From Bacteroidota bacterium (GTDB lineage: Bacteria > Bacteroidota > Bacteroidia > Bacteroidales > FEN-979): a stretch of 64,000 nt of DNA. Below are positions 1-63,573 of this stretch, piece after piece. Below the pieces are notes generated by a model that was not told the origin of the DNA, made no database searches, and saw only the letters and a list, made by a program, of their open reading frames with translations. Positions within the stretch are counted from its first letter, which is position 1. The number at the start of each line of letters is the position of its first letter. Location of the stretch: NCBI GenBank assembly GCA_037128705.1, contig JBAXVX010000007.1, positions 27,617 through 91,616 of the forward strand, read 5' to 3'. Made by a program: the position numbers and the translations under genes.

Positions 1-19
1 GTGACGCGTGACACGTGAC
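1..19 (+). repeat. Heptamer tandem array (GTGACRC) x ~3, truncated by the window edge. An A-rich tract and solo ATCGT / GTAACAGGG units follow, up to ~49.
   Basis: Read directly: GTGACGC GTGACAC GTGACA, then AAAATAA ATCGTTC ATCAGTAACAGGGTAG. Same unit as the arrays at 3838-3880, 41116-41142 and 59606-59645. Confidence 0.7.
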
Positions 20-67
20 AAAAATAAATCGTTCATCAGTAACAGGGTAGTTTTTTCATAGATTTTT

Positions 68-1849
68 ATGCCGTCGGAAAGGAAAATATACTGGGCGCTG
101 ATCATCCTGCTGATTGTTTCGGCGGTGGTTCGTGGTTTTATTGCCGGCTTTATTGAATTGGGCAACGATGAGGTTTATTACTGGACCTATGCGAAATTTC
201 CCGCGCTCAGCCATTTCGACCATCCCCCCATGGTTGGCTTCGTGATCCAGTTCTTTACCCTGAACCTGTTCCTCGACAGTGAATTCTTCATACGGCTGGC
301 CTCCGTGGTACTGGGAACGCTGAGTACGGGAATGATGTTCCTGATCGGCCGGCAGATTAAAAGCCCGCTCACCGGGTTGTACGCCGCCCTTTTATTTACA
401 GCCTCCTTTTATGGATTCATCCTGAGCGGGATCTTTATTCTCCCCGATACCCCCCAGGTGTTTTTCTGGCTGGTCACGCTTTATTGCCTGATAAAATCAT
501 TGCCTGACCAGGATACAGCGCCGGAGAGCAGGAATTATCTCTTCTTCGCAGGGGTCACCGCCGGCCTGGCCCTTTTATCGAAATATCATTCGGTTTTCCT
601 GATTGCCGGGACCTTTATGTACCTTCTTTTATATAACCGGAGATGGTTCATGGCCAAGGAGACCTACGCCTTTTTCCTGATCATCATCATGCTGTTTCTT
701 CCTGTCATTTTCTGGAACATCGATAATGATTTTATCAGTTTTACCTTTCATGAAAAGAGGATCGGGATTTCCGAATCGGGGTTCCAGCCACTCTACTTTC
801 TCACCGAAGTCACGGGCCAGTTTTTTTATAATAACCCGGTGAATGTGGTAATCATCATTGGCTCGCTGATCGCGCTGATCCGAAGGAAACAGTTCATTGA
901 GGTCTCCTACAAGCGCATCCTGCTGTGGACCAGTGTCCCGCTCATCCTGGTGTTCCTCTCTTTTTCACTTTTCCGCAGCACCCTGCCACACTGGACCGGA
1001 CCGGGTTACCTGGGTCTCATCCTGATCGCAGCGGCCTGGCTGTCAGAACCAAAGATGAATGAATCAAAAATGCGCCTTGTTCCTTTACCGGTAGTCATAT
1101 CCCTGGCGTTCCTGATAACGGTAGCCGTAACCGGGGTCGGACAGATCCGTTTTGGCTGGATCCCGCTCCAGCGAATGAAAATCGATGATGTTTCTCTCGA
1201 CATGTATGGATGGAGGCAACTCGGTACGAAGTTCCAGGCAATGGTAAAATGGGATGAGGAGCACTTTCTTATCGACAAGGGATCGCCGATCATTACCTTC
1301 AGGTGGTTCCCCGCGGCCAATTTTGATTATTACCTGGCTCACAATGACCGTAATCCGGTATATGCCCTCGGGGAGATAGAGCGCATCCATAAGTACCATT
1401 GGATAGATCAGCTGCGCGGAAATCTCAAGAAGGGAAGCGACGCCTATTTTATCGCCCTGAGCGATGACTATGAAGATCCGGTGGCGTTATACGGCAACCT
1501 GTTCGATATGGTCCTTCCATCCGATACCCTGTTCATCACGCGGGGCCGCGACACAGTCCGCAAAGCATTTATTTTCAGGATGGTCGACCTGAAACAGGAC
1601 ATGGTCTTCGGCCGCGATAAATATGCAACCCCCAAAAAACAGGATACATCCGATACCCTTTCCTTTTTTCTTAACCAGATCAGGTCGGACCGCCAGTTTC
1701 TCGATGTCCTTGAAAGGAGATCGGTCAAACTGAAAATGCCCCTCGATGACCTGATCAGGGAAGAGGCTGCCAAGCTGTATGAAGAGTCAAAAGACAAGCT
1801 GGTTTTACCGGATACCCTTAAGGAAAAAGGTGACAAGGTGACAAGGTGA
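68..1849 (+). CDS. Polytopic membrane glycosyltransferase, ArnT/PMT-like (GT-C fold, GT39/GT83-like), with a soluble C-terminal domain
   Basis: 593-aa ORF with ATG start. The N-terminal ~2/3 has many hydrophobic helices and the family-typical N-terminal segment (ELGNDEVYYWTYAKFP..HFDHPPMVGF). The last codons (GDKVTR) and the TGA stop lie inside the GGTGACAR array. Confidence 0.75.
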   Translation: MPSERKIYWALIILLIVSAVVRGFIAGFIELGNDEVYYWTYAKFPALSHFDHPPMVGFVIQFFTLNLFLDSEFFIRLASVVLGTLSTGMMFLIGRQIKSPLTGLYAALLFTASFYGFILSGIFILPDTPQVFFWLVTLYCLIKSLPDQDTAPESRNYLFFAGVTAGLALLSKYHSVFLIAGTFMYLLLYNRRWFMAKETYAFFLIIIMLFLPVIFWNIDNDFISFTFHEKRIGISESGFQPLYFLTEVTGQFFYNNPVNVVIIIGSLIALIRRKQFIEVSYKRILLWTSVPLILVFLSFSLFRSTLPHWTGPGYLGLILIAAAWLSEPKMNESKMRLVPLPVVISLAFLITVAVTGVGQIRFGWIPLQRMKIDDVSLDMYGWRQLGTKFQAMVKWDEEHFLIDKGSPIITFRWFPAANFDYYLAHNDRNPVYALGEIERIHKYHWIDQLRGNLKKGSDAYFIALSDDYEDPVALYGNLFDMVLPSDTLFITRGRDTVRKAFIFRMVDLKQDMVFGRDKYATPKKQDTSDTLSFFLNQIRSDRQFLDVLERRSVKLKMPLDDLIREEAAKLYEESKDKLVLPDTLKEKGDKVTR

Positions 1850-1995
1850 CAGGGTGACAAGGTAACAGGGTGACAAAGTAATGGAGTAATGGAGTAATGG
1901 AGTAATGAAATCGAATATCGTAAATCGTAGATCGTAAATCGTATATCGTAAATTAATCAATCATTCGTCATTCGTCATTCGCCATTCGTCATTCA
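1829..1995. repeat. Composite tandem-repeat block of four arrays: (GGTRACAR)x6 at 1829-1876, (AGTAATGG)x4 at 1877-1908, (ATCGTAN)x~5-6 at 1909-1958, (TCATTCG)x~5 at 1959-1995
   Basis: Read directly and unit boundaries counted base by base. The block spans the whole gap between two convergent stop codons (TGA 1847-1849 on +, TGA 1993-1995 on -). Confidence 0.95.
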
Positions 1996-3787: not shown

Positions 3788-3880
3788 ATTTACGATATAC
3801 GATTTACGATATACGATTTACGATATACGATTTTTTTCGTCACGTGTCACGCGTCACGTGTCACGCGTCACGCGTCACGC
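3788..3880 (-). repeat. Composite array read on the minus strand: (GTGACRC)x6 at 3838-3880, A7 at 3831-3837, (TCGTAWA)x6 at 3789-3830
   Basis: Read directly. It fills the 97-nt spacer between the prfB stop (3883-3885) and the ArsC-family start (3787). Confidence 0.95.
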
Positions 3881-3882
3881 TT

Positions 3883-4972
3883 TTATGCATTACCATATTC
3901 CATCAGGTAGGATTTGATAAACGCGGAGAGGTCGCCATCGAGCACAGCCTGGGTATCCGACGTTTCCTGTCCCGTGCGCAGATCCTTGACCATTTTATAG
4001 GGATGCAGCACATAACTGCGGATCTGGCTGCCCCACTCGATCTTTTTCTTCCCGCTCTCGATCACTGCGATCTTCTCACGCTGCTTTCGGAGTTCGATTT
4101 CATACAACTGCGATTTCAGCAGTTTCAGCGCTTTTTCGCGGTTTTGTCCCTGTGAGCGGGTCTCCTGGCATTCGATGATGATCCCCGAAGGTTCGTGTTT
4201 CAAGCGCACCGCGGTCTCCACCTTGTTTACATTTTGTCCGCCCGGACCGCTGCTGCGAAAGGTGTCCCAGCTGATCTCGGCCGGGTTGATGTCGATCACA
4301 ATGTCGTCGTTGATGATGGGATAGACATAGACTGACGCGAAGGAGGTATGCCGTTTGTGGTTGGAATCGAATGGGGAGAGCCGCACCAGCCGGTGCACGC
4401 CATTCTCGCCCTTGAGGTAGCCATAGGCATAGTCGCCGTCAAACTCCAGGGTCACCGATTTGATCCCCGCCACATCCCCCTCCTGGAAATCCACCTCGGC
4501 GATTTTGAAGCGGCTCCGCTCACCGTACCGGATATACATGCGCATGAGCATCTGAGCCCAATCCTGGCTTTCGGTGCCTCCCGCCCCGGAATTGATCTGG
4601 ACGATGGCGCCGAGCCGGTCTTCAACACCGCTCAGCATGTTGCGGAATTCCAACTCTTCTATAAGCGCCAGTGTTTCGTTGTAGTGATTTTCAAGCTCCT
4701 CTTCAGTTCCTTCACCCTGGATGTGGAATTCCCACATCACCATCAGGTCTTCCTGCGTTGAAAGCGCTTTTAAAAAGGCATCCGTCCAGAGTTTTTTATC
4801 ACGGATGGCACGCTGGGCTGTTTCCGCGGCTTTCGGATTATTCCAGAAATCGGGAGCCTGTGAAAGTTGTTCTTCTTCTGCTATCTGGGAAAGTTTCTTG
4901 TCGATGTCAAAGGTACCTCCTCAAGACGTCGAGCCTGGTCTTCAGGTCTCTCAGTTGGTCTTGTGCTATCAT
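3883..4972 (-). CDS. prfB: Peptide chain release factor 2, expressed through a programmed +1 frameshift
   Basis: Frame-1 leader ATG 4972 reads [21 protein letters not shown] then TGA (4907-4909). After a +1 shift it continues [25 protein letters not shown]... into the 3883..4743 ORF. SPF (RLSPFDS) and GGQ ([10 protein letters not shown]) motifs are present. Confidence 0.93.
4906..4921 (-). promoter_or_regulatory. RF2 autoregulatory +1 frameshift site: AGGAGG (SD-like), 3 nt, then CTT TGA C
   Basis: The minus strand reads TTG AGG AGG TAC CTT TGA C, which is the canonical RF2 recoding cassette. Confidence 0.9.
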
Positions 4973-11974: not shown

Positions 11975-13108
11975 ATGAAAAAATATTTGTTCATCCTGTT
12001 AGTAGGGGCAATCCTCGCTTCATGTACAGGAAATAAGGATCAGTTTACCATCAAGGGAAAGGTCAACGGCGTTGATACAGGAATGATCTACCTGCAAAAA
12101 TTCGATGTTGACCAATGGGTCAAAGTCGATTCATCAAAACTTGAAAAAGGAGCATTTTCATTCAAAGGATCCGCTGCTCTTCCGGAGATGTGGCACATCG
12201 TCATGGATGAAAAGCAAATCATACTTCCCGTGTTTGTTGAAAATGCCGGAATCAAGGTAGAGATCTATGTTGACAGCCTTGATAAATCGTTGATCACAGG
12301 ATCTCCCTCCCATGATATTTACCAGAAGTATCTCACCCTGAATGAGTCCGTGTATAAAAAGATGGATGAGAACACCATGGAGTGGAAGAAAGCCAGAGAT
12401 GCCAATGATTCGGCAACCATGAAACGCACCGATTCGGTTTCGAATGAGCTGGATAAGGAGATGAAAAAGCAGCTCCAGGATTTTGCCAGGGCCAACAACA
12501 AGACTGTTGTTTCTCCCTACCTGGTTATACGCAATAGCTGGCAATTTGAGCTCCCCGACCTGGAAGAACTACTTGCCGCCATGGATACCAGTCTGAATGG
12601 TTCCCAATATGTGCTGGCTCTGAAGAAACGCATTGAAATCCTGAAGCGTGTTGAAATTGGGCAGATGGCTCCTGATTTTACCTTGAATGATACCACCGGG
12701 GCCCCTGTTGCGCTGTCATCCCTGAAAGGGAGGGTGCTGCTGGTTGATTTCTGGGCATCGTGGTGCAGTCCCTGCCGGGCTGAGAATCCCAACGTGGTGA
12801 AGGCTTACCAGGCTTATCACAAGAAGGGATTTGATGTGCTGGGCTGTTCGTTCGACCAGAACCGGGAAAAATGGCTGAAAGCTTTAAGGAATGATAAACT
12901 TACCTGGACCCATGTTTCAGACCTGAAGGGATGGGGCAATGCTGCAGGCAAACTTTATGGCATCAATTCCATCCCGGCAAATGTCCTGCTCGACAAGGAT
13001 CAGAAGATCATCGGCCGTAACCTTCGCGGTGCGGATCTGATGAAGAAGCTGGAAGAGATTTTCGGACCGGCGGTTCCTGAGAAAAAGGGAAAAAAGGCAA
13101 CCAGGTAA
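11975..13108 (+). CDS. TlpA-family thiol:disulfide oxidoreductase lipoprotein (DUF4369 N-domain + thioredoxin fold)
   Basis: 377 aa. Has a lipobox (ILASC) and the redox motif WASWCSPC. The stop TAA lies in the first GGTAACAG unit. Confidence 0.88.
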   Translation: MKKYLFILLVGAILASCTGNKDQFTIKGKVNGVDTGMIYLQKFDVDQWVKVDSSKLEKGAFSFKGSAALPEMWHIVMDEKQIILPVFVENAGIKVEIYVDSLDKSLITGSPSHDIYQKYLTLNESVYKKMDENTMEWKKARDANDSATMKRTDSVSNELDKEMKKQLQDFARANNKTVVSPYLVIRNSWQFELPDLEELLAAMDTSLNGSQYVLALKKRIEILKRVEIGQMAPDFTLNDTTGAPVALSSLKGRVLLVDFWASWCSPCRAENPNVVKAYQAYHKKGFDVLGCSFDQNREKWLKALRNDKLTWTHVSDLKGWGNAAGKLYGINSIPANVLLDKDQKIIGRNLRGADLMKKLEEIFGPAVPEKKGKKATR

Positions 13109-13156
13109 CAGGGTAACAGGGTAACAGGGTAACAGGGTAACAGGGTAACAGGGTGA
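13104..13156 (+). repeat. Octamer tandem array (GGTAACAG)x6 + GGTGA
   Basis: Read directly, with units counted 13104-13151. It contains the upstream stop (13106-13108) and runs into the downstream GTG/ATG start (13153/13156). Confidence 0.95.
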
Positions 13157-39658: not shown

Positions 39659-41107
39659 ATGGAATCCGAAGCAAATAAGATCCTTGACGAAGTTACCCAG
39701 GGTGATTACAAGTATGGCTTTGTCACGGACATCGATACGGAATTTGCGCCGGTTGGACTTTCTGAAGATACCATTCGCTATATCTCCGCAAAAAAAAACG
39801 AACCGGAATTCCTTCTCGAATTCCGGTTGAAGGCATACCGTCACTGGCTTACCATGTCCATGCCCAAATGGGGTCACCTGAAGGTCGCGCCCATCAATTT
39901 TCAGGATATCATCTTTTATGCCGCGCCAAAGCAAAAGAAAGAACTTGCGAGCCTGGATGAGGTTGATCCGGAGTTGCTGGCAACTTTCACCAAGCTCGGG
40001 ATCTCGCTCGATGAACAGAAAAAGCTGTCGGGGGTGGCTGTTGACGCGGTAATTGACAGTGTATCCGTTAAAACCACCTTCTCCGAAACGTTATCAAAAC
40101 ACGGTATCATTTTCTGCTCCTTCAGCGAGGCAGTGCAGAATCATCCTGACCTGGTGAAACAATACATGGGATCGGTGGTTCCCTACACCGACAACTATTT
40201 TGCAGCACTTAATTCCGCCGTGTTCAGCGATGGCTCCTTTTGTTTTATTCCGAAAGGGGTTCGCTGTCCCATGGAGTTATCGACCTATTTTCGTATCAAT
40301 GCTGCCAATACCGGGCAGTTTGAACGTACCCTTATCGTAGCCGAAGAGGGAGCCTATGTCAGTTATATGGAGGGCTGTACGGCGCCCCGGCGAGATGAAA
40401 ATCAGCTGCATGCAGCCATTGTTGAGATCGTGGCCATGAAGGATGCGGAAGTAAAATATTCAACTGTGCAGAACTGGTATCCCGGTGATAAAAACGGGGT
40501 GGGAGGGATCTACAACTTTGTTACCAAACGCGGCATCTGCAAGGGAAGCAATTCGAAGATCAGCTGGACGCAGGTGGAGACCGGATCGGCCATCACCTGG
40601 AAATATCCCAGTTGTATCCTGATGGGAGATCATTCGGTGGGAGAGTTTTATTCTGTTGCCGTGACAAACAACCATCAGCAGGCCGATACAGGAACTAAAA
40701 TGATACACCTGGGCAAAAATACCCGGAGTACCATCATCTCAAAGGGAATTTCGGCCGGGAAGAGCAACAACTCCTACCGGGGACTGGTCCGCATCTCAAA
40801 GAATGCGGTCAATTCGCGCAATTACAGCCAGTGCGATTCCCTGCTTCTCGGCTCCATGTGCGGGGCCCATACCTGGCCTTACATCCAGGTTGATAATAAA
40901 TCGTCGATCGTGGAGCATGAGGCCACCACGTCAAAAATTTCGGAAGATCAGCTTTTTTATTGCCAGCAGCGGGGTATTTCTGCCGAAAGCGCCATCGGGC
41001 TTATTGTAAACGGATATGCGAAAGAGGTTTTAAAGCAGCTGCCCATGGAGTTTGCCGTAGAGGCCCAGAAACTGCTGTCGATCAGCCTGGAGGGAAGCGT
41101 GGGATGA
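39659..41107 (+). CDS. sufB: Fe-S cluster assembly protein SufB
   Basis: 482 aa. Full-length SufB character, followed by sufC and sufD. Confidence 0.95.
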
Positions 41108-41142
41108 CGAATCGCGTGACACGTGACGCGTGACGCGTGACC
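41108..41142 (+). repeat. Solo CGAATCG unit + heptamer array (GTGACRC)x4 (41116-41142)
   Basis: Read directly. It begins immediately after the sufB TGA (41105-41107). Confidence 0.9.
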
Positions 41143-41196
41143 AATGAAGAGTGTTGTTAAGGAAACAGATAATTTTGAATATTGAGTTAAAAAAGT

Positions 41197-41952
41197 ATGT
41201 TGTTACAAATTAAAAATCTGCATGCCGGCATCAACGGCAAAGAAATTCTCCGGGGTGTCAATCTTGAGGTGAACAAAGGCGAGGTGCATGCCATCATGGG
41301 TCCCAACGGAACCGGAAAGAGTACGCTTGCATCGGTCATTGCCGGCCGGGAGGTGTTCAACATCACCGCCGGTGAAATTCTTTACAAGGGGAAAGATCTG
41401 CAGGCGCTTTCAATCGAGGACCGCGCCCGCGAAGGGATATTCCTGGGATTCCAGTACCCGGTGGAAATCCCGGGTGTGAGCATCACCAACTTCATGCGCA
41501 CTTCCGTGAATGAAATACGGAAATTCAAAGGGCTTGATCCGCTCCCGGGAGGAGAATTTTTGCGGCTGATGGAGGAAAAAAAGCGACTGGTGGAGATCAC
41601 TTCAAACCTGACCAACCGTTCGGTGAACGAAGGATTTTCGGGTGGTGAAAAGAAAAAGAATGAGATATTCCAGATGGCCATGCTGGAGCCCATGCTGGCG
41701 ATCCTGGATGAAACCGATTCGGGGCTCGACATTGATGCTTTGCGTATCGTGGCCAATGGGGTGAATAACCTTCGTCGCGCCGATAATGCGTTCGTGGTGA
41801 TCACCCATTACCAGCGCCTGCTCGAATATATCGTTCCCGATTTTGTTCATGTGCTTTTTGAAGGAAAGATCGTAAAATCGGGCGGCAAAGAGCTGGCGAT
41901 CGAGCTGGAAGAAAAAGGTTACGACTGGATCAAAAAGGAACAGGAGGCGTGA
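41197..41952 (+). CDS. sufC: Fe-S cluster assembly ATPase SufC
   Basis: 251 aa. Walker A GPNGTGKST, ABC signature FSGGEKK, Walker B ILDETDSGLD. Confidence 0.95.
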   Translation: MLLQIKNLHAGINGKEILRGVNLEVNKGEVHAIMGPNGTGKSTLASVIAGREVFNITAGEILYKGKDLQALSIEDRAREGIFLGFQYPVEIPGVSITNFMRTSVNEIRKFKGLDPLPGGEFLRLMEEKKRLVEITSNLTNRSVNEGFSGGEKKKNEIFQMAMLEPMLAILDETDSGLDIDALRIVANGVNNLRRADNAFVVITHYQRLLEYIVPDFVHVLFEGKIVKSGGKELAIELEEKGYDWIKKEQEA

Positions 41953-43367
41953 TGCAGACTGAAAATAAAGAGATCATTTCAAAGGCACGGCTGATCAATC
42001 TTTTCAGGAAGAACAGAACTTTCCTGATAAAGAATGACACCCCTGAGCTTGCAGCAAAACGCGATAAGGCCTTCACCTCTTTCGAAAAACTTGGATTTCC
42101 CGACAACAGCCTGGAAGCCTGGCGTCTTACCGACCTGGACGATAGTTTTGCACGCGGATATGATTATCATTTGCATCCGATAAAGGAGATGGATATCCAG
42201 AAGGTATTCCGCTGCAACATTCCGCACCTCGATACGGCCGTGATCGGTCAGCTGAATGGCTGGTATGTTTCAAAAGACGTGCCCCTGATGGAGCTTGGAA
42301 ATGGCATCATCATGGGCAGCCTGGCCGAAGCCAGGAAAACCTATCCTCATCTGATCGAAAAATATTATGGCACCATGGCCGATGATGAGGCCGAAGGATT
42401 AACCGCGCTGAATACTGCTTTTGCCCAGGACGGGGTGTTTATCTATGTGCCTGATCATATCAAAAGCCCCAAGCCGGTTCAACTGATCAATGTAATCCAT
42501 CATGGGGAGAACCTTTTCCTTCAGCCGCGAAACCTGATCGTAGTGGGCGCCCATGCAAAATTATCTTTGGTTCATTGCGATGATTCCTATAATCACCAGG
42601 CCAGTTTTTCGAACATTGTCACCGAGGTCCACCTGGGAGCACATGGCACGCTTGATCATTACAAACTCCAGAATCTGAACAACGAAAGCACCCTGGTGAG
42701 TTCGGTCTATTTCAGGCTGGAAGAGGCGGCCAGTCTTGAATCGCATTATATTTCACTGAACGGGGGAATGCTGAGGAACAACATCCGCCTGCTGTTCAAT
42801 GGTCCGCATGGAAATGCCAATATTTACGGCATCTATCTCATGGATGGCAGGCAGCACGTTGATAACCAGGTATTTGTTGATCATGCCTTTCCCGATTGCA
42901 CCAGCCATGAAATGTTCAAGGGGATCCTCGATGAACATGCCCATGCCATATTCAACGGCCATGTGCTGGTTCGCCGCGATGCTGTCAAAACGGATGCCCG
43001 CCAGACGAACAAGAATATTTTGCTCACCGATACAGCCAGGGTCAATTCAAAACCCTTCCTGGAGATCTACAATGATGACGTGAAATGTTCACACGGTTCA
43101 ACAACCGGCCAGCTTGATACGGAGTCGATGTTCTACATGCGCCAGCGTGGCATCGGAGAGGATACGGCGCGCATGCTGCTGATGTTTGCCTTTGCCGATG
43201 AAATCGTTTGTAAAATTGCCATTCCCCAACTGCGCCAGCGCATTGAAGACATGGTCAAAAAGCGGCTGCAGGGAGAATTGCAGATCTGCGAACAATGCGT
43301 TCTTCACTGCAGCACGCCGGAGCACCCGGTTGAGTTTCAGATAGACATGAGCAAAATCCTTGCATGA
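41949..43367 (+). CDS. sufD: Fe-S cluster assembly protein SufD
   Basis: ~471 aa with SufB/D-family C-terminal beta-helix character. The likely start is ATG 41952, overlapping the sufC TGA (TGATG). Confidence 0.9.
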   Translation: MMQTENKEIISKARLINLFRKNRTFLIKNDTPELAAKRDKAFTSFEKLGFPDNSLEAWRLTDLDDSFARGYDYHLHPIKEMDIQKVFRCNIPHLDTAVIGQLNGWYVSKDVPLMELGNGIIMGSLAEARKTYPHLIEKYYGTMADDEAEGLTALNTAFAQDGVFIYVPDHIKSPKPVQLINVIHHGENLFLQPRNLIVVGAHAKLSLVHCDDSYNHQASFSNIVTEVHLGAHGTLDHYKLQNLNNESTLVSSVYFRLEEAASLESHYISLNGGMLRNNIRLLFNGPHGNANIYGIYLMDGRQHVDNQVFVDHAFPDCTSHEMFKGILDEHAHAIFNGHVLVRRDAVKTDARQTNKNILLTDTARVNSKPFLEIYNDDVKCSHGSTTGQLDTESMFYMRQRGIGEDTARMLLMFAFADEIVCKIAIPQLRQRIEDMVKKRLQGELQICEQCVLHCSTPEHPVEFQIDMSKILA

Positions 43368-45181
43368 GTACCCCTCTTTCAATCTATCAGCAGCGCATAG
43401 GTGAATTCTCTGCCCGAATTGATCAATTGGAAAAACCACTCCGATGGATACCATGGCTGAGGCTGCTCCTGATTATCATTACAGGTTTTTCCATCTTTTA
43501 TACTGTCAAATTTCCGGGAGCCCTTTTTGTGGTCGTCTCCATTTTGGCATTCACAGGGTTCCTGTTTGCAGGATGGTACGACGCCCGGTTAAAAAGGAAG
43601 ATGCTTCACCTGAATAAACTGATAAGGATCAACTCCCGGGAAACAGAGGTGCTGAATGGTAATTATTCCACACTGGATTCCGGAAATGAATTTGTAAACG
43701 AGGATCATCCCTATACCCATGACCTGGATATTTTTGGCATGGGATCCTTATTCCAGTATATAAACAGGACTTCGACCATTTTTGGGAAGGAGAGGCTTGC
43801 CGATTATTTCAACAGTGCCTTTCAATACAAGGATGTAATCCCGGAGCGCCAGAAGGCGGTTGAAGAACTTGCAGGCAGTATTGAATTCAGGCAGCGACTC
43901 CAGCTGATTTTCCAGGATCAGGAGACCTCCCGCCACGACCTGGCCGCACTTTCCGGATGGCTGAACGGAAATGAGGGAATCCAATGGGCCGGTCCCTTGA
44001 AGTTTTTATCGTTTTTTCTTCCGGCCATTACATTGTGTACAATGATCTTATCAGGCGCCGGAATCCTGCCATACCAGCTGCCTGTTTTCATGGTCATCAT
44101 GCAACTGCTGGTGGTATTTGGTTATGGCCGGAAAACCCTGTCGGTTCATCAACAGGTTACTTCACAGGTCGACATCCTGGGAAAATACGCCCTGGCTCTT
44201 TCATTGATCGAGGAAAACAACTTCAATGCAGCATTCAATAAAAAATTGCACGGCCAGCTGAGGTCCCAATCCCAGGGGATGCCTGCCCGCCTGATCAAAC
44301 GGCTGTCGAAGCTGCTGAATATGATGGATTCAAACCTCAACATCCTGGTTTCGGTGATCATGAACGGACTTTTCATGTTCAACATCCATGTATTGATCGC
44401 AGTGGAGCAGTGGCGGCTGACCTACCGCAGCATGGTTCCAGATTGGTTCAAGGTACTGGCTGAATTTGACGCCCTGTCGAGCCTTGGAACTTTCGCTTTC
44501 AACAACCCGAAGTACATTTACCCCGAACCGGTCACGGACAGTTTTCAGTTCGTTGCCGAAAAAATTGGCCATCCGCTGATCCCGTTTGAAGCTTGTGTTA
44601 CGAATGATATAGAGATTTGTGGCTGGAACCAGTTCCGAATCATTACCGGGGCCAACATGTCGGGAAAGAGCACCTTTTTACGGACCATTGGCACAAACCT
44701 CCTGCTGGCCATGATGGGCGCGCCTGTTTTTGCATCGAGGCTCACCTTTTATCCCATCGAAATCCACAGCAGCATCCGGACCAATGATTCGCTTACAAAG
44801 CGTGAGTCATACTTTTATGCTGAGCTCAGGCGGCTGAAGAAGATCATTTCCGAACTTGAAACCGGCCGTCAGAAGCTGATCCTGCTTGATGAGATCCTGA
44901 AGGGGACCAATTCATCAGACAAGCAAACCGGGTCGATCGCCCTGATCAGGCAACTGATGAAATACAAACTGGCAGGACTGTTTGCAACGCATGACCTGGC
45001 GCTTGGCGAACTGATAAACCATTATCCTGAAAATATCAGGAACCTCTGTTTTGAGATTCACATCACCGGCGAGCGGATGGAGATCGATTACAAGCTTTCG
45101 ACGGGCGTATGCCGCAACCTGAATGCATCCTTCCTGATGAAAAACATGGGGATTATCCTGGATGAACCCCCTCACATTTAA
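43364..45181 (+). CDS. Membrane-anchored MutS-related ATPase (MutS domain V only, no mismatch-binding domain)
   Basis: 605 aa with at least 4-5 predicted TM helices in the N-terminal and middle parts. The C-terminal MutS ATPase has Walker A GANMSGKST and Walker B LILLDEILKGTN. Its ATG overlaps the sufD stop (ATGA). Confidence 0.85.
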   Translation: MSTPLSIYQQRIGEFSARIDQLEKPLRWIPWLRLLLIIITGFSIFYTVKFPGALFVVVSILAFTGFLFAGWYDARLKRKMLHLNKLIRINSRETEVLNGNYSTLDSGNEFVNEDHPYTHDLDIFGMGSLFQYINRTSTIFGKERLADYFNSAFQYKDVIPERQKAVEELAGSIEFRQRLQLIFQDQETSRHDLAALSGWLNGNEGIQWAGPLKFLSFFLPAITLCTMILSGAGILPYQLPVFMVIMQLLVVFGYGRKTLSVHQQVTSQVDILGKYALALSLIEENNFNAAFNKKLHGQLRSQSQGMPARLIKRLSKLLNMMDSNLNILVSVIMNGLFMFNIHVLIAVEQWRLTYRSMVPDWFKVLAEFDALSSLGTFAFNNPKYIYPEPVTDSFQFVAEKIGHPLIPFEACVTNDIEICGWNQFRIITGANMSGKSTFLRTIGTNLLLAMMGAPVFASRLTFYPIEIHSSIRTNDSLTKRESYFYAELRRLKKIISELETGRQKLILLDEILKGTNSSDKQTGSIALIRQLMKYKLAGLFATHDLALGELINHYPENIRNLCFEIHITGERMEIDYKLSTGVCRNLNASFLMKNMGIILDEPPHI

Positions 45182-52402: not shown

Positions 52403-52517
52403 TCTTGTTTGAGAACAGCCGGATGAATTAGTAAACGTGGCATTTTATCAATGAATGCTCGCTTCTGATAAACGATCGCTGAAATGATTGAATCCTGGCT
52501 GAATTTCACGGTTTCAT

Positions 52518-52525
52518 TACCTTTG
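52518..52525 (+). promoter_or_regulatory. -7 promoter box TACCTTTG
   Basis: Exact TAnnTTTG match, ending 15 nt upstream of ATG 52541. Confidence 0.5.
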
Positions 52526-52540
52526 CAAAAATTTTCTAAA

Positions 52541-52873
52541 ATGGACAACAGGAATTCGCCGATCCAATCTCCTTTTGAAGCGAAGGTTGTAGCTGCCCTG
52601 CGATCAGTTTTTGATCCGGAGATCCCGGTCAATATTTATGATCTCGGGCTGATATATAACCTTCAGATCAATGAACAGACCAACGATGTGTCAATTCTGA
52701 TGACCCTGACCACCCCCAACTGCCCGGTTGCAGAAGACATGCCCGGCCAGGTGCAGGATGCTGTTAAACTGGTCGAAGGCGTGGGCAGCGTGAAGGTAGA
52801 GCTTACCTTCGAACCTCCCTGGGATAAGGAGATGCTTTCAGAATCAGCATTGCTGGATTTGGGATTACTTTAA
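52541..52873 (+). CDS. sufT: SUF-associated DUF59/MIP18-family Fe-S assembly protein (SufT-like)
   Basis: 110 aa. VFDPEIPVNIYDLGLIY and TLTTPNCPVAE motifs. The start is set by the promoter box. Confidence 0.85.
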   Translation: MDNRNSPIQSPFEAKVVAALRSVFDPEIPVNIYDLGLIYNLQINEQTNDVSILMTLTTPNCPVAEDMPGQVQDAVKLVEGVGSVKVELTFEPPWDKEMLSESALLDLGLL

Positions 52874-52888
52874 TGCATTTGAAACTAT

Positions 52889-52935
52889 GTCACGCGTCAC
52901 GCTTTTCCGTCACGCGTCACGCTTCATGTGTCACG
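52889..52935 (-). repeat. Interrupted heptamer array: plus strand reads (GTCACGC)x2 ttttcc (GTCACGC)x2 ttcatgt GTCACG, then T7
   Basis: Read directly. This is the reverse orientation of the GTGACRC family. The 16-nt super-unit GTCACGCGTCACGCTT occurs twice, 20 nt apart. Confidence 0.9.
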
Positions 52936-52943
52936 TTTTTTTA

Positions 52944-52951
52944 TACCTTTG
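52944..52951 (+). promoter_or_regulatory. -7 promoter box TACCTTTG
   Basis: Exact TAnnTTTG match, ending 21 nt upstream of the dxs ATG at 52973. Confidence 0.5.
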
Positions 52952-52972
52952 CCCACCTAATTGATCAGAACA

Positions 52973-54874
52973 ATGCCCCCGTTTTCCGGACCCCTTTTAT
53001 CTAAGGTCAACCTGCCATCCGATCTGAAAAAACTCAAGCTGGAAGAGCTTCCGCAGTTGTGTGAAGAGGTCAGGAAATTCATCATTGAGGTGATGTCTGA
53101 AAATCCCGGCCACCTGGGAGCCAGCCTTGGCGCTGTTGAGCTGGCTGTCGCGCTCCATTATGTTTATGATGCCCCTTTTGATAAGATTATCTGGGATGTC
53201 GGGCATCAGGCCTATGCCCACAAGATCCTGACCGGGAGAAAAGAACGTTTTGAAACCATCCGAACCTACCAGGGGATCAGCGGGTTTCCCAAAATGTCGG
53301 AAAGCGAATTTGATGCCTTTGGAGTCGGACATTCATCCACCTCCATCTCGGCTGCACTTGGGATGGCTGTAGCGGCCAAGTTGGGCGGCCAGGCCAACCG
53401 TCATCATGTGGCCGTCATCGGCGATGGGGCCATGACCGGTGGTATGGCCATGGAGGCGCTGAACAACGCCGGGGTTTCAAATGCCAACCTCATGGTAATC
53501 CTCAACGACAACCAGATTGCCATTGATAAAAATGTAGGAGCCATCAAGGATTATCTTGCTGATATTGTCACTTCAAGAACCTATAATAAATTTCGCGACA
53601 AGGTTTGGCTGTTACTGGGAGGTGGTACAAAATATGGCCAAAACTCCCGTGCCATCGTCAAGCAGTTGGGAAATGCACTGAAAACGACCCTTCTGAATAG
53701 CGGAAATCTGTTTGAAGCATTTAATTTCCGGTATTTTGGCCCGGTGGATGGGAACGATGTGATCCGCCTTGCGAAATTACTTAAGGACATGAACGACATC
53801 AAAGGCCCCAAACTTCTGCACATTCATACCATCAAAGGAAAAGGATTTGAGAAGGCGGAGAAGGACCAGACGGTGTATCACGCCCCGGGCGTATTTGACA
53901 AGAACACCGGTACCATCAGGGCAGATAACTGCCATGGAATGGCCCCGAAATACCAGACGGTTTTTGGCAGGACGATCATTGAACTTGCCGAGGCGAATCC
54001 GAAAATCGTCGGGATAACCCCGGCCATGTCGACGGGTTGCTCCCTCAACCTGATGATGAACAAGATGCCCGATCGCACCTTCGATGTTGGCATCGCCGAG
54101 CAGCATGCCGTTACCTTCAGTGCCGGAATGGCTGCTTCAGGATACATCCCATTCTGCAACATTTATTCAACCTTCATGCAGCGCGGATATGACCAGATCA
54201 TCCACGACGTTGCGCTGCAGAAACTCCATGTCGTGTTTTGCCTCGACCGGGGAGGACTGGTTGGAGAAGATGGGGCAACCCACCATGGTGCATTCGACCT
54301 CGCTTACCTTCGCTGTATTCCAAACATGGTTGTGGCTTCACCCATGAATGAGGAGGATTTGCGGAATATGATGTATACCGCGCAACTGGAAGGAATGGGC
54401 CCTTTTGCAATTCGATATCCAAAAGGTCGCGGCGTGATGCCCCACTGGAAAACACCGATGGTCCCTCTTGAGGTAGGAAAAGGACGAATGGTCAGGGATG
54501 GAAAGGATGCAGCCATTATAACCCTGGGTCATGTGGGGAATTATGCGGTGGAGGCCTGTGCGGCCGTGGAAGCAGCAGGACATTCCGTCGCACTGTTTGA
54601 TCTTCGGTTCCTGAAGCCGCTGGACGAGGCGCTCCTTCATGAAATTTTCGGACGGTTTAAAAAAATATTCACGGTTGAAGATGGTTCAGTGATGGGAGGC
54701 ATGGGGTCGGCGGTGCTGGAATTCATGGCCGATCATGGTTATTCAGCCCGGGTCATCCGCCTTGGGGTTCCCGATCACTTCATCGAACAGGGTTCTGTTG
54801 CAGAGCTGCATCACGAATGCGGCTTCGACAAGGAGGGAATCATTCATTCACTGACTGAACTTCTTGGCAACTAG
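52973..54874 (+). CDS. dxs: 1-deoxy-D-xylulose-5-phosphate synthase
   Basis: ~633 aa. GHSSTSISAALGMA and the TPP-binding motif GDGAMTGGMAMEALNN. The ORF-track start at 52961 is a TTG. Confidence 0.95.
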   Translation: MPPFSGPLLSKVNLPSDLKKLKLEELPQLCEEVRKFIIEVMSENPGHLGASLGAVELAVALHYVYDAPFDKIIWDVGHQAYAHKILTGRKERFETIRTYQGISGFPKMSESEFDAFGVGHSSTSISAALGMAVAAKLGGQANRHHVAVIGDGAMTGGMAMEALNNAGVSNANLMVILNDNQIAIDKNVGAIKDYLADIVTSRTYNKFRDKVWLLLGGGTKYGQNSRAIVKQLGNALKTTLLNSGNLFEAFNFRYFGPVDGNDVIRLAKLLKDMNDIKGPKLLHIHTIKGKGFEKAEKDQTVYHAPGVFDKNTGTIRADNCHGMAPKYQTVFGRTIIELAEANPKIVGITPAMSTGCSLNLMMNKMPDRTFDVGIAEQHAVTFSAGMAASGYIPFCNIYSTFMQRGYDQIIHDVALQKLHVVFCLDRGGLVGEDGATHHGAFDLAYLRCIPNMVVASPMNEEDLRNMMYTAQLEGMGPFAIRYPKGRGVMPHWKTPMVPLEVGKGRMVRDGKDAAIITLGHVGNYAVEACAAVEAAGHSVALFDLRFLKPLDEALLHEIFGRFKKIFTVEDGSVMGGMGSAVLEFMADHGYSARVIRLGVPDHFIEQGSVAELHHECGFDKEGIIHSLTELLGN

Positions 54875-59600: not shown

Positions 59601-59616
<16 letters not shown>

Positions 59617-59685
59617 CAAAAAAATCGTGACACGTGACGCGTGACAAAAAATATTGTAAATCGTAAATCATACATCGTAAATTTT
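59601..59685 (+). repeat. Composite array: [ATC (GTGACRC)1-2 GTGAC A6-7] x2 (59603-59651) followed by (ATYGTAA)-type units x4 (59653-59681)
   Basis: Read directly. It contains the permease stop (59614-59616) and ends 12 nt before the tauE-family ATG. Confidence 0.92.
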
Positions 59686-63524: not shown

Positions 63525-63573
63525 TAATTCGTCATTCGCAATTCATCATTTGTCATTCGTCATTCGTCATTCC
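63525..63573 (-). repeat. Heptamer tandem array (TCATTCG)x7 on plus, which reads (CGAATGA)x7 on the gene-sense minus strand
   Basis: Read directly, with units counted. It begins 1 nt after the LOG-family stop (63575-63577), and 10 nt separate it from the kinase ATG (63514). Confidence 0.92.

What the first reader, a model, noticed from the sequence alone, without database searches (positions are those of the whole stretch)
41108..41142. Heptamer array sits inside the suf operon, between sufB and sufC
A CGAATCG unit and (GTGACRC)x4 follow the sufB TGA immediately. sufB and sufC are normally tightly co-transcribed, and I find no TAnnTTTG box in the 89-nt gap. The array is therefore probably part of a housekeeping polycistronic mRNA. 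This argues against a simple terminator role and for tolerance, or function, at the RNA level.
Basis: partly seen in the sequence, partly recalled or inferred. Interest (0 to 1): 0.55.

Follow-up and report, generated by a model that had tools for sequence, protein, structure and literature searches.

The report
Heptamer repeat array in suf spacer
The four CGTGACR heptamers after sufB are real, but they are one ordinary copy of a fast-evolving family of 7-8-base tandem repeats that fills many gene spacers in this uncultured freshwater Bacteroidales lineage, and nothing here points to a suf-specific RNA function.

Summary
sufB ends with TGA at 41105-41107. CGAATCG follows, then four CGTGACR units (41115-41142). 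sufC starts at 41197.

The array is not special to suf. At least eight spacers in the window hold 7-8-nt arrays, and GTGACRC recurs at five of them.

Three related lineages have three different units in the same register at this site: CGTGACR here, AATGACC at 82% nt identity, and CGAATKA at 93%. Eight same-species contigs are identical. I read this as one orthologous microsatellite evolving in concert. It sits in the dispensable, stop-proximal half of the spacer.

About 30% of Bacteroidales sufB-sufC spacers carry some such array, and more than 25 different units are seen. Distant relatives have spacers of 24-46 nt with no array.

A perfect TAATTTTG lies at 41170-41177, 27 nt before the sufC ATG. 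It sits in a 47-nt block that is conserved at 82% genome identity, and its distance matches the boxes in front of other genes in the window. An internal sufC promoter therefore cannot be excluded.

The array is not a terminator. It has a -15 kcal/mol hairpin but no U-tract, and the hairpin is absent from the orthologues.

The closest known kinds are heptanucleotide LSSRs and cyanobacterial STRRs, which are also known inside operons. This is a new member of a known kind. Interest is low to moderate.

The parts
39659..41107 (+). sufB (482 aa), stop TGA at 41105-41107
   Evidence: NCBIfam NF008773 SufB, 897.5 bits, profile positions 6-484 of 484
41108..41114 (+). CGAATCG: a degenerate edge unit of the heptamer tract. 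It resembles the CGAATKA units of the sister lineage. The AATCG-(C)GTGAC junction also occurs at 59602-59612 and 59622-59632.
41115..41142 (+). Core array: CGTGACA CGTGACG CGTGACG CGTGACC (4 x 7 nt). TGA occurs in all three frames. The RNA can form a 12-bp hairpin of -15.2 kcal/mol.
   Evidence: TRF; pattern statistics; fold
41143..41156 (+). Two degenerate 3' edge units, AATGAAG and AGTGTTG, in register with the AATGACC/AATGAAG/CGTGTTG units of L129. The whole 49 nt from 41108 to 41156 is seven heptamer slots.
   Evidence: alignment A1; sequences
41150..41196 (+). Conserved sufC leader block (AGTGTTGTTAAGGAAACAGATAATTTTGAATATTGAGTTAAAAAAGT). It overlaps the last degenerate unit.
   Evidence: Only 2 substitutions from TGTTGTT to the ATG versus L129 (82% nt identity overall). 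L082 has 3 substitutions and one T deleted.
41170..41177 (+). TAATTTTG: a perfect match to the Bacteroidetes -7 promoter consensus TAnnTTTG, 27 nt upstream of the sufC ATG. It is a candidate internal promoter and is unproven.
   Evidence: 8 of 47 genes have a box 15-45 nt upstream of the start; conserved in L129, broken by a 1-nt deletion in L082
41197..41952 (+). sufC (251 aa)
   Evidence: TIGR01978, 355.6 bits
41949..43367 (+). sufD. It overlaps sufC by 4 nt with the GTG start (1 nt with the ATG at 41952) and is followed, with a 4-nt overlap, by a MutS-domain gene (43364-45181).
1..20 (+). GTGACRC array (same family) at the window edge, followed by AAAAATAAATCGT
1827..1994 (.). Four consecutive arrays (AAGGTGAC x6, AGTAATGG x4, AAATCGT x6.6, TCATTCG x5) fill the whole convergent spacer. 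Both flanking stop codons lie inside arrays.
   Evidence: copy-number polymorphism in L212
3788..3880 (-). Composite on the gene (-) strand: (GTGACRC)x6, then A7, then (TCGTAWA)x6. It fills the RF2-to-ArsC co-directional spacer.
   Evidence: the sister lineage has the same composite with fewer copies
13104..13154 (+). GGTAACAG x6.4. It contains the upstream stop codon and ends 1 nt before the next ATG.
52889..52935 (-). GTGACGC-family array in reverse orientation relative to the flanking + genes, directly upstream of a TACCTTTG box (52944)
59606..59682 (+). GTGACRC blocks separated by A-runs, then a GTAAATC array, in a co-directional spacer
63527..63572 (-). (AATGACG)n array on the gene (-) strand, directly after a stop codon. 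This is the same unit family as the sister lineage's suf array.

Best explanation
The array is a heptanucleotide microsatellite: a long simple-sequence repeat, STRR-like. It is one of a genome-wide family of 7-8-nt tandem arrays in this uncultured freshwater Bacteroidales lineage.

Inferred mechanism. Short units next to a stop codon are duplicated and deleted by replication slippage or unequal exchange. The array is repeatedly homogenised (concerted evolution), so its unit sequence drifts between lineages (AATGACC / AATGACG / CGTGACG). Its position, register and edge units persist.

The array occupies the stop-proximal half of the sufB-sufC spacer because that half is selectively free. The sufC-proximal 47 nt, which is conserved, carries whatever sufC expression needs: a leader and possibly a TAnnTTTG promoter.

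The array is most likely transcribed as the trailer of sufB, because nothing terminates transcription before or in it, and it is tolerated there. It contributes no sequence-specific function to suf expression. Its hairpin and its TGA in all three frames are by-products of the unit that happens to be fixed in this species.
For: (1) The array family is window-wide. At least 8 array-bearing spacers were found in 64 kb. GTGACRC occurs at 5 of them. They lie in co-directional and convergent spacers and in both orientations.

(2) Across the window and about 90 related loci, intergenic arrays are overwhelmingly of period 7 (54) or 8 (28), against 5 and 8 in coding sequence. These counts still include nine near-identical same-species suf loci. 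This is the signature reported for prokaryotic LSSRs (PMC4679880 and PMC4692102, both citing Mrazek 2007).

(3) The site is orthologous but the unit differs. The window and L129 both have an 89-nt spacer with seven heptamer slots in register, CGTGACR versus AATGACC. L082/L086 (93% nt identity, identical SufC) have (CGAATKA)x6. The window's edge units keep the relatives' unit types.

(4) The same concerted pattern occurs at other loci. In the convergent spacer the window has (AATGACG)5 and the sister has (AATGACC)6. The RF2-ArsC composite is shared with the sister lineage with different copy numbers, while a more distant relative has overlapping genes and no array.

(5) Copy number varies within the species at one array: 5 versus 8 units in L212.

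(6) The sufB-sufC spacer holds arrays of more than 25 different units: 6/6 genomes at >=90% SufB identity, 13/27 at 80-90%, 13/64 at 70-80%. Array-free relatives have short spacers.

(7) There is no terminator, no Rfam family, and no structure in the orthologous arrays.

(8) Many arrays begin with the stop codon as part of the first unit (L002, L003, L014; window 13104). This fits seeding by duplication at the one place where an indel changes neither protein.
Against: Independent slippage should give each locus its own unit. Here a small vocabulary recurs: GTGACRC at 5 loci, AATGACS at 3, TCGTAWA at 3. So does a composite order, GTGACRC array, then A-run, then TCGTAA array. This points to copying between loci or to selection on the units.

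sufB-sufC spacers carry arrays more often than other co-directional spacers in the same loci: 21/70 versus 20/150, Fisher p=0.005. The loci are not phylogenetically independent.

Arrays with stops in all three frames favour the sense strand: 22 sense-only versus 10 antisense-only, p=0.05.

The suf array is invariant in 8 same-species contigs from different samples. Its hairpin of -15.2 kcal/mol (z=-1.8) could affect mRNA decay.

No transcript data were available, so 'transcribed and tolerated' is an inference.
Confidence: 0.65

Rival explanations
1. The array is a functional RNA element within a polycistronic sufBCD mRNA. It could act as a stem-loop that blocks 3'-5' exonucleases or directs processing, as REP elements do in E. 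coli operons and as proposed for STRRs between hupS and hupL. It could also be a periodic binding platform for an RNA-binding protein of the S1, cold-shock or CsrA type, as MacGregor proposed for TAACTGA repeats. Either way it would set the SufB:SufC ratio.
For: The array RNA folds into a 12-bp hairpin of -15.2 kcal/mol that makes up 56% of the ensemble. The longer GTGACRC array at 3834-3886 gives -23.1 kcal/mol with z=-3.2. GTGACRC is in the sense orientation in 3 of 4 co-directional spacers. The array is identical in all same-species contigs. There are precedents in PMC2670836 and PMC4679880.
Against: The orthologous arrays in L129 and L082 have no structure (z=+1.7 and -0.9 kcal/mol) and different sequences, yet SufC is identical or 96% identical. 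The wider region folds no better than shuffles (z=-0.03). The same units occur in a convergent spacer and in reverse orientation. There is no Rfam hit.
Confidence: 0.12
2. The array lies outside the sufC transcription unit. sufC(D) has its own promoter (the TAATTTTG -7 box at 41170-41177). The array, at roughly -40 to -70, then acts as an upstream spacer or regulator-binding region, or simply marks the untranslated end of a sufB transcript. The 'housekeeping polycistronic mRNA' premise would then fail.
For: A perfect -7 box lies 27 nt before the ATG, within the 17-42-nt range seen for 7 other genes in the window. The box is 10-fold enriched in intergenic DNA. The chance of a perfect box in that 31-nt window is about 1-6%. 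The box and its 47-nt block are conserved in L129 at 82% genome identity. L082 lost this box but has TAGTTTTG 47 nt upstream of its sufC start. Another GTGACGC array directly abuts a TACCTTTG box at 52944.
Against: No terminator separates sufB from the box, so read-through is still expected. No TTTG -33 element is seen at the canonical spacing (sequence). The box is broken by a 1-nt deletion in the 93% sister lineage and is absent from nearly all other Bacteroidales sufB-sufC spacers. Array units differ between lineages, so a conserved operator is unlikely.
Confidence: 0.15
3. The array is a translational backstop. Units that contain a stop codon and have a period not divisible by 3 place TGA in all three frames just after sufB. 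Ribosomes that read through the first stop codon or have shifted frame are then released before they reach the sufC initiation region.
For: TGA occurs in all three frames within 41115-41142 (sequence). Among 7/8-nt arrays in co-directional spacers, 22 have three-frame stops on the sense strand only and 10 on the antisense strand only. Most vocabulary units here carry TGA or TAA on the gene strand. MacGregor noted the same property for TAACTGA repeats (PMC4679880).
Against: The bias is marginal (p=0.05) and is equally expected if arrays are seeded by duplicating the stop codon itself (L002, L003, L014, window 13104). 16 of 53 arrays have three-frame stops on neither strand. Array 52889-52935 is in the stop-free orientation. 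Any AT-rich spacer already contains stops.
Confidence: 0.05
4. The arrays are modules of a non-autonomous mobile or copy-paste element (GTGACRC block, A-run, TCGTAA block). An unknown sequence-specific mechanism inserts them into spacers, and the suf copy is one insertion.
For: The same units and the same composite order recur at several loci. The AATCG-(C)GTGAC junction recurs at the suf locus and at 59602 and 59622. Spacers that are absent in a more distant relative (overlapping RF2/ArsC, 13-nt convergent spacer) are filled with arrays in this genus.
Against: There are no terminal inverted repeats, target-site duplications or associated transposase. At the suf site the three lineages share register and length, which fits in-situ evolution better than insertion. 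GTGACRC triples are absent from all other relatives' loci. The few viral-contig hits are in unrelated high-GC DNA.
Confidence: 0.08
5. The array is an intrinsic transcription terminator or attenuator that ends the sufB transcript.
For: A GC-rich hairpin of -15.2 kcal/mol lies immediately after the stop codon.
Against: No U-tract follows; the next bases are CCAAUGAAGAG. The terminator scan finds nothing in 41108-41196. The orthologous arrays lack the hairpin. Arrays of the same family fill spacers that have no room for a downstream promoter.
Confidence: 0.03

Closest known systems
Long simple sequence repeats (LSSRs) with 5-11-nt units, heptanucleotides being the commonest class (Mrazek, Guo & Shah 2007, as summarised in PMC4679880 and PMC4692102)
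   Same: Head-to-tail 7-nt units. Almost exclusively intergenic. Period 7 dominates. Sporadic phylogenetic distribution. Length and sequence vary between close relatives. Slippage is the proposed origin.
   Different: The lineage is new: uncultured freshwater Bacteroidales. The units are new: GTGACRC, AATGACS, TCGTAWA, GGTAACAG and others. An unusually large share of spacers is affected, several different units lie side by side, and 8-mers are also common.
Cyanobacterial STRR heptamers, including those between the co-transcribed hupS and hupL genes
   Same: A few heptamer families are scattered over many intergenic sites. Some lie inside operons between co-transcribed genes. Some can form hairpins. 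Function is unknown, with 'transcript stability or translational coupling' suggested (PMC2670836).
   Different: Different phylum and different unit sequences. Here the hairpin is not conserved even between sister lineages.
TAACTGA direct repeats of Beggiatoaceae, Cyanobacteria and five Bacteroidetes (MacGregor 2015, PMC4679880)
   Same: Intergenic heptamer direct repeats. Units give stop codons in all three frames in the forward orientation. They are found inside ribosomal-protein operons. In Gramella, Aequorivita and Elizabethkingia they sit in spacers alongside other heptamer repeats, and close relatives have shorter, repeat-free spacers.
   Different: The unit is not TAACTGA. The BOGUAY repeats sit a few nt upstream of start codons and replace SD sequences. 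The suf array abuts the stop codon and lies 55 nt from the start.
GGGAATC (Xanthomonas) and GGGGAYT (Nostoc) heptameric repeats (Rehm 2015, PMC4692102)
   Same: Mostly intergenic and between co-directional ORFs. Much closer to the upstream ORF's end (mean 28 nt) than to the downstream ORF. [quoted passage not shown] One lies inside the pec operon (pecE-pecF).
   Different: Those units are G-rich and form G-quadruplexes. GTGACRC cannot. Its only structural potential is self-complementary ACGCGU/CACGUG pairing.
REP/BIME elements within E. coli operons, e.g. malE-malF (own knowledge, not tested here)
   Same: Repeated extragenic sequence in the spacer of a polycistronic operon. It is transcribed, forms a stem-loop, and can stabilise the upstream mRNA segment.
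   Different: REPs are imperfect palindromes mobilised by RAYT transposases. This element is a direct tandem repeat without a palindromic unit, and no RAYT was seen.
Phase-variable contingency-locus SSRs (Haemophilus, Neisseria; PMC2651432, PMC12721329)
   Same: A tandem short repeat prone to slippage.
   Different: It lies neither in an ORF nor between promoter elements. No copy-number variation was seen among 8 population samples. The flanking genes are housekeeping.

Membership tests
Prokaryotic LSSR / heptanucleotide microsatellite | Head-to-tail tandem copies (>=3) of a 5-11-nt unit, more than chance | tested here: met
   TRF: period 7, 4.1 copies, score 51. Two-unit pattern: 14 hits against 0.01 expected.
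Prokaryotic LSSR / heptanucleotide microsatellite | Predominantly non-coding location, with period 7 the dominant class | tested here: met
   Period-7 arrays: 54 intergenic, 5 coding. Period-8 arrays: 28 intergenic, 8 coding.
Prokaryotic LSSR / heptanucleotide microsatellite | Copy number and unit change between close relatives (slippage dynamics) | tested here: met
   Different units in the same register in L129 and L082. Copy-number differences at other arrays: 5 versus 8 units within the species, 6 versus 3 between sister lineages. The suf array itself is invariant within the species.
Cyanobacterial STRR family (sensu stricto) | One of the described STRR heptamer sequences in a cyanobacterial genome | tested here: not met
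   The flanking genes and the closest genomes are Bacteroidales. The units are GTGACRC and others. It works like an STRR but is not a member.
TAACTGA repeat family (MacGregor 2015) | Unit TAACTGA, typically a few nt upstream of start codons | tested here: not met
   No TAACTGA array appears in the TRF list. The suf array is 55 nt from the ATG.
Intrinsic (Rho-independent) terminator | GC-rich hairpin immediately followed by a U-tract | tested here: not met
   A hairpin is present (-15.2 kcal/mol), but CCAAUGAAGAG follows it. The scan finds no terminator in 41108-41196.
Phase-variable contingency locus | SSR within an ORF or the promoter core, with copy-number polymorphism in populations | tested here: not met
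   The array lies between the stop codon and the leader. Eight contigs from different samples are identical.
Known structured RNA family (Rfam) | Covariance-model match at the gathering score | tested here: not met
   No matches in the whole window. The region's fold z-score is -0.03.
Bacteroidetes sigma-A promoter (TTTG -33 / TAnnTTTG -7) in front of sufC | TAnnTTTG at a promoter-like distance from the start codon | tested here: met
   TAATTTTG at 41170-41177, 27 nt before the ATG. Seven other genes have a box at 17-42 nt.
Bacteroidetes sigma-A promoter (TTTG -33 / TAnnTTTG -7) in front of sufC | -33 TTTG element at the canonical spacing, and a mapped transcription start | tested here: inconclusive
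   Only a GTTG lies 13 nt upstream of the box (sequence). The canonical spacing of about 19-21 nt is from my own knowledge. No transcript data are available with these tools.
REP/MITE-type mobile intergenic repeat | Palindromic unit or terminal inverted repeats, target-site duplication, cognate transposase | tested here: inconclusive
   The arrays are direct tandem repeats. No terminal inverted repeats or target-site duplications are visible in the sequences read. The repeat finder inverted-repeat scan was not run. No RAYT or transposase search was made.

The most novel reading that the evidence does not exclude
The arrays are not passive microsatellites but a lineage-specific system. A small vocabulary of stop-containing 7-8-nt units (GTGACRC, AATGACS, TCGTAWA, GGTRACAG) is written into, or exchanged between, many spacers, including spacers inside formerly overlapping operon genes. 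The agent would be a sequence-specific copying mechanism, or the units would be maintained as periodic binding sites for an RNA- or ssDNA-binding protein. Either way this would be an operon-internal layer of post-transcriptional control. The recurring composite order and the concerted, genome-wide unit changes between sister species are what simple slippage does not explain.
Probability: 0.12. Interest if true: 0.65.

Novelty: new member of a known kind. Interest (0 to 1): 0.3.

Why it matters
As a suf feature it matters little. The array is a tolerated passenger, and the interesting-sounding inference of an RNA function inside a housekeeping operon rests on a missed promoter box.

The surrounding picture has some value. 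Here is an uncultured Bacteroidales genus in which roughly one spacer in six is built from 7-8-nt arrays. The arrays enter tightly packed or overlapping gene pairs. They share a small unit vocabulary across loci and evolve in concert between species that are 82-93% identical.

This gives a clean natural series for asking two questions about heptamer repeats that have been open since the STRRs were described in cyanobacteria: how they arise, and why seven. It also explains why assemblies of these organisms break at spacers.

Tried and rejected
(1) Rfam at gathering threshold over the whole window found nothing.

(2) The sigma-70 promoter and terminator scan found nothing in the spacer. Sigma-70 hexamers are not the relevant promoter type in Bacteroidetes.

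(3) The single metagenome scan, with the 17-mer at the sufB 3' end, was too unspecific. It returned 120 loci from many phyla. After a tblastn filter it yielded only L129, L174 and L139 as informative relatives.

(4) I looked for copy-number polymorphism of the suf array among same-species contigs and found none. Two further arrays were also invariant. Only the CGAATGA array in the convergent spacer varied.

(5) A viral-contig scan for (GTGACRC)3 gave seven hits. The contigs range from 33 to 73% GC, and the four clearest intergenic arrays are in 63-73% GC contigs. None resembles this genome, so there is no link to a phage of this host.

(6) I rejected a small ORF in the spacer (ATG 41144 to TGA 41185, 13 codons). 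The 7-nt indel in L129 destroys its frame (sequence).

(7) I considered Fur-box-like AATGA repeats in relatives (L010, L082, L129). The period is 7, not the 6 of Fur hexamers, and the window's own unit is unrelated, so I did not pursue this.

(8) I tried to learn whether the SRR85171xx assemblies are metatranscriptomes, which would show a sufB-sufC-sufD transcript. No paper in the library mentions them.

(9) A literature search for heptamer repeats specifically in Bacteroidales returned nothing relevant.
Full report
**1. The observation**

Reading 40900-41400 shows sufB ending ...GGA TGA at 41105-41107. CGAATCG follows at 41108-41114. Then come CGTGACA CGTGACG CGTGACG CGTGACC at 41115-41142.

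Tandem Repeats Finder reports period 7, 4.1 copies, score 51. The flanking ORFs are SufB (NF008773, 897 bits, aligned to the last profile position) and SufC (TIGR01978, 356 bits, aligned from profile position 1). The gap is therefore exactly 89 nt. sufD overlaps sufC by 4 nt. A MutS-domain gene overlaps sufD by 4 nt.

The two-unit pattern occurs 14 times in the window against 0.01 expected. The array is real and non-random.

**2. It is not a suf feature**

TRF lists 7- and 8-nt arrays at 1-20, 1827-1994, 3788-3880, 13104-13154, 41113-41141, 52889-52935, 59606-59682 and 63527-63572. With a simple ORF map, all are intergenic.
- Five lie in co-directional spacers. Two of these spacers are filled completely by arrays: 13104-13154, where the upstream TAA is inside the first unit and the next ATG is 1 nt after the last unit, and 3788-3880.
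- One lies in a convergent spacer that is made entirely of four different arrays, with both stop codons inside arrays.
- One is at the window edge.

GTGACRC recurs at five loci, four forward and one reverse relative to the neighbouring genes. AATGACG recurs at two loci. TCGTAWA recurs at three.

A composite order, GTGACRC block, then A-run, then TCGTAA block, is seen at 1-40, 3788-3880 and 59606-59682.

**3. Source and relatives**

A genome-collection scan with SufB found only uncultured Bacteroidales and other Bacteroidota MAGs, mostly freshwater or sediment, with a best hit of 94% aa.

An exact-protein look-up with SufC found eight contigs of the same species from several lake samples (99.9% nt identity). 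All have the identical 4-copy array. It also found two contigs of a sister lineage (L082/L086) at 93% nt identity with identical SufC.

The metagenome scan added L129: 82% nt identity over 11 kb, SufB 96% aa.

**4. Orthologous site, different unit**

After the stop codon the three lineages read as follows (alignment A1):
- window: CGAATCG CGTGACA CGTGACG CGTGACG CGTGACC AATGAAG AGTGTTG
- L129: GCAAACC AATGACC AATGACC AATGACC AATGAAG AATGTTA CGTGTTG
- L082: G GAATGAC GAATTAC AAATTAC GAATGAT GAATTAC GAATAAA ...

The window and L129 have the same spacer length (89 nt) and seven heptamer slots in the same register (xxTGAxx). The window's edge units keep the unit types of its relatives.

I infer that this is one old array whose interior is repeatedly homogenised, so that the window's CGTGACG differs from AATGACG by AA>CG. 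I do not read it as three independent insertions.

Other loci behave the same way:
- In the convergent spacer, the window has (AATGACG)5 and the sister has (AATGACC)6.
- In the RF2-to-ArsC spacer, both lineages have the GTGACRC / A-run / TCGTAAA composite, with 6+6 versus about 3+2 copies.
- A relative with 82% ArsC identity has overlapping RF2/ArsC genes and a 13-nt convergent spacer with no array.

One same-species contig has 8 instead of 5 CGAATGA units. This is direct evidence of slippage-type dynamics.

**5. The sufB-sufC spacer across Bacteroidales**

Among 108 non-redundant spacers, arrays (period 5-12, at least 2.8 copies) are present in:
- 6/6 genomes with >=90% SufB identity,
- 13/27 at 80-90%,
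- 13/64 at 70-80%,
- 2/11 below 70%.

More than 25 different units are seen. Array-free spacers in the 70-90% identity bins have medians of 52-65 nt, and many are only 24-46 nt.

Within the 80 genome loci, the suf spacer carries arrays somewhat more often than other co-directional spacers: 21/70 versus 20/150, Fisher p=0.005. The genomes are not independent.

Over all loci, intergenic arrays are mostly of period 7 (54) or 8 (28) and rarely in coding sequence. These counts include nine near-identical same-species suf loci. This matches what is described for prokaryotic long SSRs (PMC4679880, PMC4692102).

**6. The promoter premise**

There is one: TAATTTTG at 41170-41177, 27 nt before the ATG.

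In the window, 8 of 47 genes have a perfect box 15-45 nt upstream. The seven others are at 17-42 nt. The motif is about ten times more frequent in intergenic than in coding DNA. The chance of a perfect box in that 31-nt window is about 1-6%, depending on the background rate used.

The box lies in a block (TGTTGTTAAGGAAACAGATAATTTTGAATATTGAGTTAAAAAAGT) with two substitutions relative to L129, although the genomes are only 82% identical.

Points against a promoter:
- L082 has lost one T of the box. It has another perfect box, TAGTTTTG, 47 nt upstream of sufC instead.
- Almost no other Bacteroidales sufB-sufC spacer has a box.
- No -33 TTTG is seen at the usual spacing.
- No terminator separates sufB from it.

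My reading is that read-through from sufB is likely and an additional internal promoter is plausible. Neither is shown.

**7. RNA-level properties**

The 116-nt region folds no better than shuffles (z=-0.03).

The array alone forms a 12-bp hairpin, because ACGCGU and CACGUG are self-complementary. Its energy is -15.2 kcal/mol with z=-1.8. The longer GTGACRC array at 3834-3886 gives -23.1 kcal/mol with z=-3.2.

No U-tract follows the hairpin. The orthologous arrays of L129 and L082 are unstructured (z=+1.7; -0.9 kcal/mol). Rfam finds nothing in the window. Whatever the hairpin does, it is not a conserved requirement of this operon.

**8. Stop codons**

Most units in this genome carry TGA or TAA on the gene strand. 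With period 7 or 8 this puts stops in all three frames.

Over all loci, arrays in co-directional spacers have three-frame stops on the sense strand only in 22 cases, on the antisense strand only in 10, on both in 5 and on neither in 16 (p=0.05).

A neutral explanation fits. Many arrays begin with the stop codon itself as part of the first unit (L002 TAATGTGA/TGATGTGA, L003, L014, window 13104). The window's own stop context, TGACGAA, resembles the unit TGACGCG. Duplicating the stop-containing heptamer is the one indel that alters neither protein nor the downstream leader. I therefore rank the 'translational backstop' idea low.

**9. Mechanism, with shown and inferred steps**

Shown:
- The array exists, and its family is genome-wide.
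- It is positionally orthologous in three lineages but differs in sequence.
- Copy number changes within and between lineages.
- The sufC-proximal block is conserved while the stop-proximal part is not.
- There is no terminator.
- A -7 box is present.

Inferred:
- Origin and turnover by slippage or unequal exchange, with homogenisation.
- Transcription through the array as the sufB trailer.
- Neutrality for suf expression.

Unexplained by this account:
- The small shared unit vocabulary.
- The recurring composite order across loci.

These two points keep alive a copy-between-loci mechanism or selection on the units as binding sites.

**10. Comparison with known kinds**

The closest kinds are:
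- heptanucleotide LSSRs;
- cyanobacterial STRRs, which are known between the co-transcribed hupS and hupL and have been suggested to stabilise transcripts (PMC2670836);
- TAACTGA repeats, which are found inside ribosomal-protein operons and, in some Bacteroidetes, next to other heptamer repeats, while close relatives have short repeat-free spacers (PMC4679880);
- GGGAATC/GGGGAYT repeats, which lie close to the upstream ORF between co-directional genes, are variable between related species, and in one case sit inside the pec operon (PMC4692102).

The array meets the generic LSSR criteria. It is not a member of the STRR or TAACTGA families, because the sequences and the phylum differ. It fails the tests for a terminator, a contingency locus and an Rfam RNA.

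A heptamer array inside an operon is therefore not new in kind. The lineage, the units and the density are new.

**11. Verdict**

'Not a terminator, tolerated in an operon' is reasonable. 'No promoter box', and hence 'necessarily polycistronic, perhaps RNA function', is not. This is a new member of a known kind, with interest 0.3.

Noticed in passing
window 1827-1994: A 143-nt convergent spacer (PMT-family glycosyltransferase >< fumarase C) consists entirely of four different tandem arrays in a row: AAGGTGAC x6, AGTAATGG x4, AAATCGT x6.6, TCATTCG x5. Both genes' stop codons lie inside arrays. A same-species contig (L212) has 8 instead of 5 CGAATGA units. The 92% sister lineage has AATGACC there instead and lacks the AGTAATGG block.
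   Followed up: partly
window 1-20; L212-L214 ends: Assemblies of this organism tend to break at the arrays. The window itself starts inside a GTGACRC array, and the one contig end I read (L213) stops inside the 1827-1994 array cluster. L212 runs about 100 nt past it and L214 stops before it. MAGs of this clade may therefore under-represent arrays.
   Followed up: no
window 4902-4972 (- strand): prfB (RF2) appears to have the classical +1 programmed frameshift. A short ORF0 ([21 protein letters not shown]) ends at CTT TGA C and is preceded by AGGAGG. The TACCTTTG 'promoter box' hit at 4908-4915 is part of this frameshift site, not a promoter. The site is conserved in the sister lineage.
   Followed up: partly
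window 43364-45181: A 605-aa MutS-domain protein (MutS_III weak, MutS_V; below the NCBIfam MutS1/MutS2 cutoffs) follows sufD with a 4-nt overlap, where a sufS might be expected. The arrangement is the same in all same-species and sister contigs.
   Followed up: no
window 52484-52973: A DUF59/FeS_assembly_P (SufT-like) gene is followed by a reverse-orientation GTGACGC-family array. The array runs into a T-run and a TACCTTTG box 29 nt before the next gene. This is a second Fe-S assembly gene with an array next to it, and here the array directly abuts a likely promoter.
   Followed up: no
L001 3781-3859, L003 2750-2796, L069 338-401: The same 8-mer array (TGTCCGCC, 6-10 copies) lies upstream of sufB in three different MAGs with 92-94% SufB identity: about 140 nt upstream in L001 and L069, and further in L003, where another ORF intervenes. 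This array family is conserved across species, unlike the suf spacer units.
   Followed up: no
L225 758-778 and 1498-1518; L230 4989-5009 (IMG/VR contigs): Unrelated high-GC viral contigs carry (GTGACGC)3 blocks about 10-25 bp upstream of divergently read start codons (CAT...CCTC GTGACG...). These may be operator-like sites. They have no evident relation to the Bacteroidales arrays.
   Followed up: no
L009, L010, L072, L073, L044 sufB-sufC spacers: In several relatives the sufB-sufC spacer has grown to 380-1300 nt and seems to contain an inserted small ORF, often flanked by arrays. The spacer therefore also accepts gene-sized insertions.
   Followed up: no
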